Below are positions 30,101-33,100 of a stretch of 64,000 nucleotides of DNA, piece by piece. The stretch's first letter is position 1. Each line of letters opens with the position of its first letter. Made by a program: the position numbers. This DNA is from Escherichia coli O157:H7 (GTDB lineage: Bacteria > Pseudomonadota > Gammaproteobacteria > Enterobacterales > Enterobacteriaceae), in the NCBI RefSeq assembly GCF_013167455.1, contig NZ_CP038328.1, one strand, 5' to 3'.

Positions 30101-33100
30101 TCTCGGCGAAGAGGTCATTACCACCAGTGGTGATTTTGTGCTGGCGAAAGTCTGGGCGATGGTGATGGCGTCAGTAGCACCGCCAGCATTGCAATTGCCA
30201 TTACCCGATCATTTCCAACCGACTGGCAGGCCGCTTCCTTTAGGCCTGTTACGGCGCGAATACATCATTCTGATTGAGATCGCACTGTCAGCGTTATCGC
30301 TGTTGCTTTGCGGCCTTCAGGCAGAACCGCGTTATATTATTTTGGTTCCTGTGCTGGCGGCTATCTGGATTATTGGCAGTCTGACAAGCAAAGTTTATAA
30401 AGCAGAAATCCAGCAACGCCGTGAGGCATTTAATCGCGCGAAAATGGACTATGACCATTTAGTCAGCCAGATCCAACAGTTGGGCGGGCTGGAAGGTTTT
30501 ATCGCCAAACGGGCGATGCTCGAAAAAATGAAGGACGAAATTCTCGGGTTACCGGAAGAGGAGAAACGCGCTCTGGCAGCACTTCATGACACTGCAAGGG
30601 AACGGCAGAAGCAGAAGTTTCTGGAGGGATTTTTTATTGATGCTGCCTCTATTCCCGGCGTTGGCCCTGCGCGTAAAGCGGCGTTACGGTCTTTTGGTAT
30701 TGAAACAGCCGCGGATGTTACCCGTCGTGGGGTTAAGCAAGTTAAAGGGTTTGGTGATCATCTGACCCAGGCGGTTATCGACTGGAAAGCGAGCTGTGAA
30801 CGCCGTTTTGTGTTCAGGCCGAACGAAGCGGTAACGCCTGCAGAAAGACAAGCGGTAATGGCGAAAATGGCCGCCAAACGACATCGGCTGGAATCGGCGT
30901 TGACTGTCGGCGCGACAGAGTTGCAGCGATTCCGCCTTCATGCTCCAGCACGGACCATGCCGTTGATGGAACCGTTACGTCAGGCGGCAGAAAAACTGGC
31001 TCAGGCGCAGGCAGATTTAAGCCGCTGCTGAGCCATTTTTCAATTAACGAAACACCACTTCCGCCCAGCGTGCCAGCCCGGCGGTGACGGAGCCAAAGTC
31101 ATCGCCGCCTGCAATCGGAATGCCCGGCAACTGTTCTGCCAGCGCTTTTTTAATCAGCGGAGAACGGGCGCTTCCGCCGGTCAGGTAGATAACGTCCGGT
31201 TTTTCCTGGGCGTTATCCAGCGCCAGTTGCACCTGTTCCTGAATCCGCGCCAGTGGCTGGCTGAGGGCGCTTTCCAGCCCTTGCTGGCTAATCAGCGTAG
31301 CCAGTTCATCGCTGATAAACGGCAGTGAGGCGCGGGTTTCCGCTACGCTTGAAAGCGCAATTTTGCACTCTTCTGCGCTACGCACCAGGCGATAGCTTAA
31401 ACGCTGACGCCAGACTTTCTGTAGCAGGGCCACTTTTTCCGGTTCGCGGGCATCGCGTACCAGATCGTTAAGCAGACGACCGTTGGCACTACTGTAGAAA
31501 TCACTCTGCGCAGGTACGTCGTTGATGGCAACCGCATTCCACCACGGCAGAATCGGCAGGGCGATGCCTTTTTCGGTTTCGCCACCCATACCCAGCAGTG
31601 GCATCAGGTTTTTAAACGCCAGTGCGATATCCAGATCGTTACCGCCAATACGGCAACCACTGTGACCCAGCAGGCTGGCTTCACGATCGAGACGCGAACG
31701 CCACTGCGGCCCCATCAGCAGCAATGAACAGTCAGTCGTACCACCGCCGATATCCACCACCAGTACCCGTTTTTCTTCCTGTAAGGTGGCTTCGTAATCC
31801 AGCCCAGCCGCTACCGGCTCGTACTGGAATACCACGTCCCTGAATCCGGCACGCTTCGCCGCGCGTTCCAGAATCCCTTGCGCCTGGGCGTTTGCTTCAT
31901 CGCCGCCCAGCCCCTGGAAGTTGATCGGGCGACCAATCACCGCCTGAGTAATCGCTTCTGGCAGCTGCGCTTGCGCCTGCTGGCGAATGTGCAACATCAT
32001 TGCGCAGACCAGATCCTCAAACAGCGCTACCTGCTGCGGTTTTAAGCCGCTGGCACCGAGGAACGATTTTGGTGATTTCACAAACCACACTTCTTCTGGA
32101 TCATCAATGTACTGTGCCAGTGAGGAAAGACCGAACTGCACGCTTTTCGCCGTAACATCGATATCTTCTTCGCGATTATAACGAATCGCCCGACGCAACA
32201 GTGCCTGCGTTTCATCGTCGTCTGCCGGAACATCATGATGGCGGTACAGCCATTCGCTTACCGCTTCACGCGTTGGCGCGCAAAGCATTGAAGGCAGCAG
32301 CGTGCTGTCGTTTTCCATTTTTAGCAAGTGCGGTTTACCGTCACGCATGACCGCTACTGAACAGTTTGCTGTACCGTAATCAAAACCAATAAACACGAAA
32401 TAATCCCCATGCCGGTGAAGAAGGGGCGTGACTTTAGCGAAATGTTGCCGTCGCGACAACCGGAATATGAAAGCAAAGCGCAGCGTCTGAATAACGTTTA
32501 TGCTGAAAGCGGATGAATAAGGAGATGCGATGTATACCCTGAACTGGCAGCCGCCGTATGACTGGTCGTGGATGTTGGGATTTCTCGCCGCCCGTGCAGT
32601 GAGTGGTGTGGAAACGGTCGCTGACGATTATTATGCCCGTAGTCTGGCGGTGGGCGAATATCGCGGCGTGGTGACTGCTATTCCGGATATAGCCCGCCAT
32701 ACTCTGCACATAAATTTAAGTGCAGATTTAGAACCCGTTGCCGCTGAGTGTCTGGCGAAAATGAGCCGCCTGCTTGATCTGCAATGTAACCCGCAGATTG
32801 TTAACGGTGCGTTGGGCAAGTTAGGCGCGGCGCGGCCCGGATTGCGTTTACCCGGCAGTGTTGATGCTTTTGAGCAAGGCGTGCGGGCGATTTTAGGCCA
32901 ACTGGTGAGCGTGGCGATGGCGGCAAAATTGACTGCCAAAGTGGTACAGCTTTATGGCGAACGGCTGGATGATTTTCCGGAGTATATCTGCTTCCCCACG
33001 CCTCAGCGGCTGGCAGCAGCAGACCCGCAGGCATTAAAAGCGTTAGGTATGCCGTTGAAACGGGCAGAGGCGCTGATTCATCTGGCAAATGCGGCGCTGG

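What the first reader, a model, noticed from the sequence alone, without database searches (positions are those of the whole stretch)
31031..32396. Hsp70/actin-like ATPase yegD sits convergently 12 bp from the kinase gene
Seen: yegD (450 aa, GTG start) ends 12 bp from the yegI stop on the opposite strand. YegD has the actin/Hsp70 ATPase signatures but no recognisable substrate-binding lid. Such tight convergent packing may be coincidental, but a shared terminator could couple expression, and a chaperone-like partner for the kinase triad is a testable idea.
Basis: inference. Interest (0 to 1): 0.35.

Follow-up and report, generated by a model that had tools for sequence, protein, structure and literature searches.

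The report
yegD beside an inserted kinase cassette
The tight tail-to-tail packing of yegD and the kinase gene yegI in E. coli is real, but it most likely arose when a mobile three-gene kinase cassette inserted right after the stop codon of an old, independent gene, so there is no evidence that the two work together.

Summary
yegD (31044-32396, minus strand, GTG start, 450 aa) ends 12 nt from the yegI stop codon (31031). YegD consists only of an Hsp70-type nucleotide-binding domain and has no substrate-binding domain or lid.

The proposed chaperone partnership is not supported:
- Salmonella, Citrobacter and two Enterobacter species keep alkA-yegD-(sib/ibs)-mdtA without yegLKI.
- Sequence matching Salmonella breaks at the yegD stop codon and resumes about 3.5 kb away (window ~27557). 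yegL-yegK-yegI is therefore an Escherichia-specific insertion.
- None of 77 YegD-family loci from other species has a YegI, YegK or YegL relative within 10 kb. YegD has no conserved neighbour at all.
- None of 9 non-Escherichia vWA-PP2C-kinase cassettes has an Hsp70 gene nearby. Most of them sit among defence genes.

The shared-terminator idea is partly right. An A5-hairpin-T5 palindrome (30990-31041, -22.4 kcal/mol on both strands) is the strongest such element in the window. It spans the last 14 yegI codons and most of the spacer. It should end both transcripts and make them overlap by about 50 nt. yegD-yegI is already listed as a convergent excludon in published E. coli data.

Verdict: ordinary, and largely already known.

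The parts
31044..32396 (-). yegD coding sequence (450 aa, GTG start, TAA stop). It encodes a stand-alone Hsp70-type nucleotide-binding domain.
   Evidence: Translation. NCBIfam NF008673 matches 1-450 of 450 at 811 bits. Pfam HSP70 matches the NBD part only. AlphaFold2 model with pLDDT 92. Foldseek top hits are DnaK, Hsc70 and BiP NBDs. RefSeq annotates the interval as yegD.
31032..31043 (.). 12-nt spacer GCCATTTTTCAA between the two stop codons. Its first 10 nt belong to the palindrome: GCCA in the 3' arm of the hairpin, then TTTTT(C) as the T-tract.
   Evidence: Read directly. Inverted repeat. The spacer is 11 nt in E. coli E6474, and the T-run is interrupted in E. marmotae.
30990..31041 (.). 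Bidirectional intrinsic-terminator-like palindrome: GAAAAA, then stem CTGGCTCAG...CTGAGCCA, then TTTTTC. It lies inside the last 14 codons of yegI plus most of the spacer.
   Evidence: MFE of the surrounding ~100-nt stretches is -39.6 kcal/mol (plus strand, z -3.65) and -45.8 kcal/mol (minus strand, z -3.0). The arms 30992-31004 and 31028-31040 are 92% complementary. The hairpin alone is -22.4 kcal/mol on each strand. It is the most stable hairpin-before-T5 in the 64-kb window and the only site found on both strands. The simple scan missed it because the outer stem encloses a 23-nt inner region.
29091..31031 (+). yegI, an atypical membrane Ser/Thr kinase with a C-terminal HhH-like region. It is the last gene of the inserted cassette. 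The longest ORF starts at GTG 29082, but ATG 29091 is the likely start.
   Evidence: ORF list and translation. Met4 is invariant in the homologue alignment. RefSeq names it 'protein kinase YegI'. Weak HHH_5 match and no Pkinase Pfam hit. Biochemistry is in 10.1101/819920.
28333..29094 (+). yegK/pphC, a PP2C-type phosphatase. It overlaps yegL and yegI by 4 nt each.
   Evidence: Pfam PP2C_2, E = 8.5e-49. RefSeq names it pphC. 10.1101/303594.
27677..28336 (+). yegL, a vWA-domain protein and the first gene of the cassette.
   Evidence: Pfam VWA, E = 1.5e-9. RefSeq names it yegL.
27558..31043 (+). Inferred inserted segment of about 3.49 kb: a 119-nt leader, yegL, yegK, yegI and the 12-nt spacer. 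It is absent from the syntenic site in Salmonella, Citrobacter and Enterobacter.
   Evidence: In Salmonella, the sequence directly after the yegD stop codon (CGCCTCGCAAG...TTGACA...) matches the window's minus strand from about 27557 downward. Synteny table. GC is 0.48-0.53 here against 0.55-0.58 in yegD.
26726..27530 (-). Three tandem Sib antitoxin RNA / ibs toxin modules. In Salmonella and Citrobacter a single such module follows yegD directly.
   Evidence: Rfam RF00113 matches at 27530-27382, 27196-27054 and 26868-26726, 140-145 bits each. Salmonella and Citrobacter have an Ibs_toxin gene about 100 nt after yegD.
32530..33378 (+). alkA, the divergent neighbour of yegD on its 5' side. This neighbour is conserved across Enterobacteriaceae.
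   Evidence: ORF. tblastn synteny in L001-L004, L008-L010 and L013.

Best explanation
yegD is an old, vertically inherited, stand-alone gene for an Hsp70-type nucleotide-binding domain. It has no substrate-binding domain and no conserved gene neighbour.

In an ancestor of the genus Escherichia, a compact mobile three-gene cassette (vWA protein YegL, PP2C phosphatase YegK/PphC, Ser/Thr kinase YegI) inserted into the variable spot between yegD and the sib/ibs-mdtA region. The break lies essentially at the yegD stop codon. That event, not function, explains the 12-nt tail-to-tail spacing.

At the new junction there is an A-tract/hairpin/T-tract palindrome. It is built from the last 14 yegI codons, the yegI stop codon and most of the spacer. 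It most likely acts as a bidirectional intrinsic terminator:
- yegI mRNA would end just past its stop codon.
- yegD mRNA would end about 50 nt into the antisense strand of yegI.
- The two transcripts would therefore share only a short complementary 3' end, which is a convergent excludon layout.

Status of each step:
- Shown here: the coordinates, the domain content, the synteny break, the independent distributions and the existence of the palindrome.
- Inferred: the direction of the event (gain in Escherichia), that the palindrome terminates transcription in vivo, and that YegD has no role with the kinase.
For: Synteny and insertion
- Salmonella and Citrobacter freundii have dgcE-alkA-yegD-ibs-mdtABC with no yegLKI. 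C. werkmanii and two Enterobacter species are the same.
- The Salmonella sequence immediately after the yegD stop codon realigns with the window only at about 27557, 3.49 kb away.
- Superficieibacter carries a different 5.8-kb insert at the same site, made of SUKH, Tli3 and Imm52 immunity genes and Rhs/Tle3 fragments. The site is therefore a hotspot.
- GC is 0.48-0.53 in yegLKI against 0.55-0.58 in yegD.

Independent distributions
- YegI relatives are at least 92% identical within Escherichia, then about 62% in two Klebsiella species at a different locus, and 56-60% in Betaproteobacteria and metagenomes.
- 9 of 9 foreign cassettes are the same three genes with unrelated flanks, often defence genes, and no HSP70.
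- 77 YegD-family loci from different species gave 0 tblastn hits to YegI, YegK or YegL within 10 kb.
- The largest non-self neighbour cluster around YegD covers only 8 of 75 loci.

Junction palindrome
- describe it. The stem is conserved in E. marmotae and in a divergent E. coli strain.
- The 3' arm is absent after the kinase stop codon in foreign cassettes.
- There is no comparable hairpin after yegD in Salmonella or Citrobacter (z about 0).
- yegD-yegI is listed among the 165 convergent excludons of MG1655 (PMC12288877).

Separate regulation
- yegD translation is activated by the sRNA RyhB (PMC4666370).
- Conditions that express pphC or yegI could not be found.
Against: - Within E. coli both units are core: yegD is in 5417 and yegLKI in 5416 of 5426 genomes. 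A secondary functional link acquired after the insertion therefore cannot be excluded from distribution alone.
- In K-12, overexpressing yegJ (a K-lineage insert between pphC and yegI) raises yegD mRNA about 8-fold. The authors of that study speculate about a common pathway (PMC13232886).
- TerY-P-type triads do co-occur with Hsp70-like proteins in type III-A CoCoNuT systems (PMC11090510).
- Terminator activity is predicted only. The T- and A-tracts are degraded in E. marmotae, and the stem shows no covariation because it is invariant.
- Only 9 foreign cassette loci were inspected.
Confidence: 0.78

Rival explanations
1. Selected antagonistic coupling (a true excludon). The overlapping 3' ends are not just tolerated. 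Transcription of yegD represses yegLKI expression, or the reverse, through transcriptional interference or RNase III cleavage of the roughly 50-nt duplex.
For: - yegD-yegI is in the MG1655 'excludome', meaning overlap was seen in at least 50% of 58 transcriptomes (PMC12288877).
- The terminator for yegD lies inside the yegI coding region, which is the layout that paper treats as the stronger evidence.
- yegD is expressed, whereas yegI and pphC are nearly silent under standard growth.
Against: - If the palindrome terminates efficiently, the overlap is only the terminator hairpin itself, which is the usual geometry of bidirectional terminators at convergent genes.
- No reciprocal expression data exist for this pair.
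- In the yegJ-overexpression data yegD went up while yegI was not reported to change.
- The arrangement is a recent insertion scar, and the T-tract varies between Escherichia lineages.
Confidence: 0.15
2. YegD acts as a chaperone-like ATPase partner or substrate of the YegL/YegK/YegI module, at least in Escherichia.
For: - The two units are always adjacent in E. coli and E. marmotae.
- yegJ overexpression induces yegD.
- There is precedent for Hsp70-like proteins in operons that also hold TerY-P triads, in CoCoNuT type III-A systems.
Against: - Phylogenetic distributions are independent: 0 of 77 and 0 of 9 loci.
- The orientation is convergent, so the genes are not co-transcribed.
- A terminator-like element sits between them.
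- YegD lacks any substrate-binding domain.
- The CoCoNuT Hsp70-like proteins carry NBD plus SBD, have degenerate ATPase motifs and are linked to McrBC-like genes. None of that is seen here.
Confidence: 0.05
3. The triad is ancestral next to yegD and was lost independently in Salmonella, Citrobacter, Enterobacter and others.
For: Deletions at this junction do occur. E. coli strain I3 has a truncated yegD abutting yegI.
Against: - It needs several independent, clean losses that all restore the same yegD-stop/sib-promoter junction.
- The Klebsiella copies are only about 62% identical in YegI and YegK, and they sit at another locus.
- The cassette occurs in Betaproteobacteria at 56-60% identity.
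- GC content differs from the flanking genes.
Confidence: 0.02

Closest known systems
Hsp70/DnaK family nucleotide-binding domain (Pfam PF00012). E. coli paralogues are DnaK, HscA and HscC.
   Same: - The actin-like ATPase fold covers the whole of YegD.
- The phosphate-1 motif (D6-x-G8-T9), phosphate-2 motif (D215-I-G-G-G-T220-x-D222), adenosine motif (T406-G-G) and the catalytic Lys and Glu equivalents (K110, E193) are invariant in the family alignment.
- They align with the DnaK motifs.
   Different: - There is no interdomain linker, no beta-sandwich substrate-binding domain and no helical lid. The protein ends where the NBD ends.
- About 70 extra residues form family-specific helices (about residues 43-98).
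- The positions aligned to DnaK R167, N170 and T173 are V189, Y192 and V195 (alignment). That those DnaK residues contact the J-domain is taken from my own knowledge.
- There is no adjacent J-protein or exchange-factor gene.
TerY-P triad (vWA + PP2C + Ser/Thr kinase; Anantharaman et al. 2012; stand-alone defence system in Gao et al. 2020, as summarised in PMC11090510)
   Same: - yegL-yegK-yegI has the same three-gene, overlapping-ORF architecture.
- It moves as a unit and is frequently found in defence islands with GmrSD, type I RM, ScoMcrA, BrxR, JetB, AbiH and KAP NTPase genes.
   Different: - The kinase carries transmembrane segments and an HhH-like C-terminus, not an OB-fold or zinc ribbon.
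- YegL and YegK matched no PADLOC model, and YegI gave only weak PD-T4-6 and MkoA kinase hits.
- No antiphage activity has been reported for yegLKI in the papers searched.
Convergent excludons and bidirectional intrinsic terminators in E. coli (ExcludonFinder, PMC12288877)
   Same: - Convergent genes with a very short spacer.
- A terminator embedded in the neighbour's transcription unit.
- The pair is explicitly listed in that study.
- The palindrome has the A-tract/stem/T-tract symmetry of bidirectional terminators.
   Different: No pair-specific validation exists. The overlap predicted here is only the hairpin, about 50 nt.
CoCoNuT type III-A systems (CnuCD Hsp70-like NBD/SBD together with TerY-P; PMC11090510)
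   Same: An Hsp70-like protein and a vWA-PP2C-kinase triad occur in one neighbourhood.
   Different: - There are no McrB-like GTPase, CnuH helicase or HEPN genes here.
- YegD has intact ATPase motifs and no SBD.
- The genes are convergent and have separate evolutionary histories.

Membership tests
YegD family (NCBIfam NF008673 / PRK11678 'molecular chaperone') | Full-length match above the curated cutoff | tested here: met
   811 bits against a cutoff of 331, aligned 1-450 of 450.
Hsp70/DnaK chaperones | Actin-like NBD with phosphate-1, phosphate-2 and adenosine motifs and catalytic Asp, Lys, Glu and Thr | tested here: met
   D6, G8, T9, K110, E193, D215, G217-219, T220, D222 and G407-408 are invariant in 19 family members. 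They align to the DnaK motifs. Foldseek E = 6e-20 to the DnaK NBD.
Hsp70/DnaK chaperones | Hydrophobic interdomain linker, beta-sandwich substrate-binding domain and alpha-helical lid | tested here: not met
   The protein ends at the end of the NBD. The Pfam match is confined to the NBD part of the 599-position profile. PDB alignments stop at DnaK residue ~355. The AlphaFold2 model is a single NBD-like globule.
Hsp70/DnaK chaperones | J-domain docking residues (DnaK R167, N170, T173) and a cognate J-protein or exchange-factor gene nearby, as for dnaK-dnaJ and hscB-hscA | tested here: not met
   The aligned positions are V189, Y192 and V195. The role of these DnaK residues is taken from my own knowledge. 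The neighbours are alkA and yegI. No conserved neighbour was found in 75 loci.
TerY-P triad (vWA-PP2C-STK) | Three adjacent co-oriented genes encoding a vWA domain, a PP2C phosphatase and a Ser/Thr kinase | tested here: met
   VWA and PP2C_2 Pfam hits. The ORFs overlap by 4 nt. The same triad is found in 9 foreign loci. Kinase activity is taken from the literature; there was no Pkinase Pfam hit.
TerY-P triad (defence-system version, Gao et al. 2020) | Kinase fused to a C-terminal OB-fold (or a zinc ribbon in the CoCoNuT-linked version), and recognition by defence-system HMMs | tested here: not met
   The YegI C-terminus gives only a weak HHH_5 hit. PADLOC gave no hit for YegL or YegK and only weak PD-T4-6 and MkoA kinase hits for YegI.
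Functional gene pair (yegD with yegLKI) | Conserved co-occurrence or adjacency across genera | tested here: not met
   0 of 77 YegD-family loci have YegI, YegK or YegL within 10 kb. 0 of 9 triad loci have HSP70. The syntenic locus lacks the triad in Salmonella, Citrobacter and Enterobacter.
Bidirectional intrinsic terminator | Stable G+C-rich hairpin flanked by an upstream A-tract and a downstream T-tract, so that each strand reads hairpin followed by a U-run | tested here: met
   GAAAAA-stem-TTTTTC at 30990-31041, -22.4 kcal/mol on both strands. It is the strongest such element in the window and the only two-strand site.
Bidirectional intrinsic terminator | Transcript 3' ends map to the element in vivo | not testable with these tools
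   This needs Term-seq or SEnd-seq data. There is only indirect support from the excludon listing.
Convergent excludon | Overlapping transcription of convergent neighbours with reciprocal expression | not testable with these tools
   Overlap is reported in PMC12288877 Table 1. Reciprocal regulation of this pair has not been reported.

The most novel reading that the evidence does not exclude
After the cassette landed next to yegD in the Escherichia ancestor, the two units became secondarily wired together. Examples would be YegD as a substrate or ATP-dependent modulator of the membrane kinase YegI, or the two being reciprocally controlled through their overlapping 3' ends and the K-lineage gene yegJ. 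YegD would then be an Hsp70-NBD-only component recruited to a TerY-P-like, possibly defensive, phospho-signalling module.
Probability: 0.06. Interest if true: 0.5.

Novelty: already known. Interest (0 to 1): 0.15.

Why it matters
- **Little follows if the main conclusion holds.** It removes a tempting guilt-by-association inference for two poorly understood E. coli genes. yegD should be studied as an independent, widely conserved Hsp70-NBD-only ATPase. yegLKI should be studied as a horizontally acquired vWA-PP2C-kinase cassette of the TerY-P type that elsewhere lives in defence islands.
- **By-products.**
  - The insertion boundaries are mapped to window ~27558-31043.
  - The yegD|mdtA gap is recognised as a hotspot for accessory conflict genes.
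  - A strong bidirectional terminator-like palindrome is partly built from yegI coding sequence.
- **If the low-probability link were real,** it would give a first functional handle on YegD and on the kinase triad.

Tried and rejected
- **Simple terminator scan.** It found nothing at the junction. This was a false negative caused by its loop limit of 3-8 nt; folding and a custom scan found the palindrome.
- **Co-occurrence within E. coli.** Uninformative, because both units are core genes.
- **PADLOC scan.** No convincing defence-family assignment. The YegD hit to PDC-M61B covers only the 27-residue phosphate-2 motif.
- **Target-site duplication or conserved cassette ends.** None was evident at the junctions. 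The leaders upstream of the vWA gene are not conserved between cassettes.
- **Scan of IMG/VR viral contigs with a YegI alignment.** No relatives, so there is no sign that the cassette is phage-borne.
- **Covariation in the hairpin.** Not assessable. The stem is invariant in the Escherichia sequences compared, and the 3' arm is absent elsewhere.
- **Literature.** Searches for YegD phosphorylation or a YegI link to phage found nothing relevant. The ExcludonFinder supplements were not held.
- **Metagenome scan for more triad loci.** Not run. It was judged too costly, since 9 of 9 and 77 of 77 loci already agreed.
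Full report
**What is in the sequence**

The window is E. coli chromosome and is 100% identical to strain 2017C-4109 over the regions queried. The local gene order is:
- mdtB and mdtA (minus strand);
- three Sib/ibs modules (Rfam RF00113 at 27530-27382, 27196-27054 and 26868-26726);
- yegL (27677-28336, plus strand), yegK/pphC (28333-29094, plus) and yegI (ending 31031, plus);
- yegD (31044-32396, minus);
- alkA (32530-33378, plus);
- dgcE/yegE.

The yegI stop codon TGA is at 29029-31031's end position, i.e. 31029-31031, and the yegD stop codon (TAA read on the minus strand) is at 31046-31044. They are separated by 12 nt, GCCATTTTTCAA. yegD starts with GTG at 32396 and encodes 450 aa. 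That length is confirmed by an end-to-end match to NCBIfam NF008673, by RefSeq annotation and by 450-aa orthologues in other genera.

Two small corrections apply. yegI most likely starts at ATG 29091 (646 aa), because that Met is invariant among homologues. This strain also lacks the K-12-specific gene yegJ between yegK and yegI.

**What YegD is**

Pfam HSP70 matches only the N-terminal, nucleotide-binding part of the profile. PDB sequence hits are all Hsp70s and align YegD 3-427 to DnaK residues 5-355. An AlphaFold2 model built on a 19-sequence family alignment is confident (pLDDT 92.2, pTM 0.88) and forms one globule. Its best structural matches are DnaK, Hsc70 and BiP, aligned over their NBDs, with target-normalised TM of about 0.7 for the isolated NBD structures at 17-23% identity.

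The catalytic and nucleotide-binding motifs are invariant across the family: D6/G8/T9, K110 in a family-specific SPKSFLG motif, E193, D215-IGGGT220-x-D222 and T406-GG. There is no linker, no substrate-binding beta-sandwich and no lid. About 70 extra residues form family-specific helices.

The positions aligned to DnaK R167, N170 and T173 are V189, Y192 and V195. I recall from the DnaK literature, and did not test here, that these DnaK residues contact the J-domain. No J-protein gene is adjacent. YegD is a member of the Hsp70 NBD superfamily but fails the defining features of a canonical Hsp70 chaperone.

**Is the adjacency functional? Cross-genome test**

Within E. coli the question cannot be answered. 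yegD is present in 5417 and yegLKI in 5416 of 5426 complete genomes.

Outside Escherichia the answer is clear. Salmonella enterica and Citrobacter freundii have dgcE-alkA-yegD-ibs-mdtABC with nothing between yegD and the ibs/sib module. C. werkmanii and two Enterobacter species also have alkA-yegD-mdtA without yegLKI.

The Salmonella sequence directly after the yegD stop codon (G-CGCCTCGCAAG..., followed by the TTGACA of the sib promoter) has its counterpart in the window only from about 27557 on the minus strand. That is on the far side of yegL. The segment ~27558-31043 (3.49 kb) comprises a 119-nt leader, yegL, yegK, yegI and the 12-nt spacer. It is therefore an insertion whose right-hand break lies at the yegD stop codon. 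E. marmotae has the same arrangement, also with a 12-nt gap.

Superficieibacter electus carries an unrelated 5.8-kb insert at the same site. It holds orphan immunity genes (SUKH, Tli3, Imm52) and Rhs/Tle3 fragments. The yegD|mdtA gap is therefore a hotspot for accessory conflict genes. GC content is 0.48-0.53 across yegLKI against 0.55-0.58 across yegD.

**Independent distributions**

YegD identity declines smoothly with phylogeny: about 90% in Citrobacter, 88% in Salmonella, 86% in other Enterobacteriaceae, and 44-55% in Providencia, Vibrio, Shewanella, Aeromonas, Colwellia and Pseudoalteromonas.

A scan of one genome per GTDB species returned 77 YegD-family loci with up to 10 kb of flank on each side. 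tblastn with YegI, YegK and YegL found no hit in any of them. All-against-all clustering of flanking ORFs found no conserved neighbour. The largest non-self cluster, LysR-type regulators, occurs in 8 of 75 loci.

YegI behaves differently. It falls from at least 92% identity within Escherichia to about 62% in Klebsiella spallanzanii and K. aerogenes, and to 56-60% in Piscinibacter, Chromobacterium and many metagenomic contigs. I inspected nine non-Escherichia loci. All have the same compact vWA-PP2C-kinase triad, unrelated flanking genes and no HSP70 gene within 7-8 kb.

Several of these cassettes sit among defence genes:
- GmrSD, SymE and a type I RM specificity subunit;
- SLFN-like helicase, ScoMcrA, BrxR and JetB;
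- AbiH and KAP NTPase next to Tn7-like TniQ/TniB;
- HsdR/M/S and Mrr;
- Prok-E2/ThiF;
- PIN-TPR-GreABC.

No relative of YegI was found in IMG/VR viral contigs.

**The junction itself**

The consensus terminator scan found nothing at the junction. Folding did. Positions 30990-31041 read GAAAAA-CTGGCTCAGG...CTGCTGAGCCA-TTTTTC. The arms 30992-31004 and 31028-31040 are 92% complementary. Folding about 100 nt around the junction gave z-scores of -3.65 (plus strand) and -3.0 (minus strand) against shuffles.

The hairpin alone is -22.4 kcal/mol on either strand. In my scan of the whole window for hairpins immediately followed by T5, it is the most stable site on each strand. The next best are -17.0 kcal/mol on the plus strand and -18.9 kcal/mol on the minus strand. 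It is also the only site found on both strands. This is the anatomy of a bidirectional intrinsic terminator.

The 5' arm encodes Leu-Ala-Gln in the YegI C-terminal tail. The 3' arm is the last yegI codon, its stop codon and the first bases of the spacer, with the T-tract following in the spacer. The 3' arm is absent after the kinase stop codon in foreign cassettes. The stem is invariant in E. marmotae and in a divergent E. coli strain. The T- and A-tracts vary, with TCCTTC in E. marmotae and an 11-nt spacer in strain E6474. Salmonella and Citrobacter have no notable hairpin directly after yegD (z about 0).

The predicted consequences are as follows. yegI mRNA ends just after its stop codon. 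yegD mRNA ends about 50 nt into the antisense strand of yegI. The two RNAs overlap only over the hairpin. This agrees with the published listing of yegD-yegI among the 165 convergent excludons of MG1655, where overlap was seen in at least 50% of 58 transcriptomes. In that study, 146 of the 165 had overlapping predicted terminators (PMC12288877).

Its expected effect is insulation or mild antagonism, not co-expression.

**Other regulatory information**

- yegD translation is activated by RyhB, validated with a translational fusion (PMC4666370).
- pphC and yegI expression could not be detected under the laboratory conditions tried.
- The one hint of a link comes from K-12. Overexpressing yegJ raises yegD mRNA (log2 fold change 3.0 without IPTG and 1.8 with IPTG), and the authors speculate about a common pathway (PMC13232886). 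yegJ is absent from this window, and yegI was not among the changed genes in the supplementary file searched.
- TerY-P triads do accompany Hsp70-like NBD/SBD proteins in type III-A CoCoNuT systems (PMC11090510). Those systems have McrB-like GTPases, helicases and HEPN nucleases, and their Hsp70-like proteins have degenerate ATPase motifs. None of this applies here.

**Conclusion**

The best-supported account is historical. A mobile vWA-PP2C-kinase cassette, TerY-P-like in architecture but with a membrane-anchored, HhH-tailed kinase and unrecognised by PADLOC models, inserted at a hotspot immediately after the stop codon of the core gene yegD in the Escherichia lineage. The junction carries a strong bidirectional terminator-like palindrome.

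YegD is a stand-alone Hsp70-NBD ATPase with intact catalytic motifs. It probably acts as an ATP-driven switch on an unknown partner through its family-specific helices. There is no comparative evidence tying it to the kinase triad.

A secondary, Escherichia-specific link cannot be excluded, and I put it at about 5%. The genes, their adjacency and the transcript overlap are all already in the literature. The finding is ordinary and scores low.

Noticed in passing
window 26726-27530 (minus strand): Three tandem Sib antitoxin RNA / ibs toxin modules lie between mdtA and yegL (Rfam RF00113, 140-145 bits each). From my own knowledge K-12 has two (ibsA, ibsB). Salmonella and Citrobacter have one, directly after yegD.
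   Followed up: partly
L010 11350-17148 (Superficieibacter electus): The same yegD|mdtA gap holds a 5.8-kb array of orphan immunity genes (SUKH, Tli3, Imm52, DUF2314) and Rhs/Tle3 fragments. This suggests the site is an integration hotspot for conflict-system genes.
   Followed up: partly
L006 4932-5474, L089 5917-6501, L091 5907-6473: In 3 of 9 foreign vWA-PP2C-kinase cassettes, a staphylococcal-nuclease-like gene (PF00565) preceded by a ~70-aa ORF sits immediately upstream in the same orientation. It could be an effector of the module. It is absent from E. coli.
   Followed up: no
window 29082-31031 (YegI): YegI gets no Pfam Pkinase hit. It gives only weak matches to lanthionine-synthetase kinase domains and the PD-T4-6 and MkoA defence kinases, plus a weak C-terminal HHH_5 hit. 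The kinase is atypical, and its tail may bind nucleic acid. That would be a variation on the OB-fold or zinc-ribbon tails of TerY-P kinases.
   Followed up: partly
L041, L044, L045, L047, L058 region (Pseudomonas loci; cluster 10): Distant YegD-like paralogues (about 29-30% identity) in five loci, apparently from Pseudomonas, lie about 300 nt from a divergently transcribed DnaJ/CbpA-like J-domain gene. This could mean that clade, unlike YegD proper, has a J-protein partner. It may also be plain genus-level synteny.
   Followed up: no
window 29094 / K-12 yegJ site: This strain has contiguous, overlapping yegK-yegI. K-12 lineages carry yegJ inserted between them on the opposite strand, which is the same strand as yegD and downstream of it. 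Published data show yegJ overexpression induces yegD about 8-fold.
   Followed up: partly
NZ_CP195969.1 ~2229095-2229526 (E. coli strain I3; hits H8 and H34): A rare E. coli genome keeps only the last ~26% of yegD, abutting yegI. This indicates a deletion at or near the junction.
   Followed up: no
one search hit list (YegI clusters P0150-P0164): Many large sequence clusters of YegI are truncated (402-508 aa, hundreds of members each), whereas YegD clusters are mostly full length. This could reflect frequent pseudogenisation of yegI, or merely fragmented assemblies.
   Followed up: no
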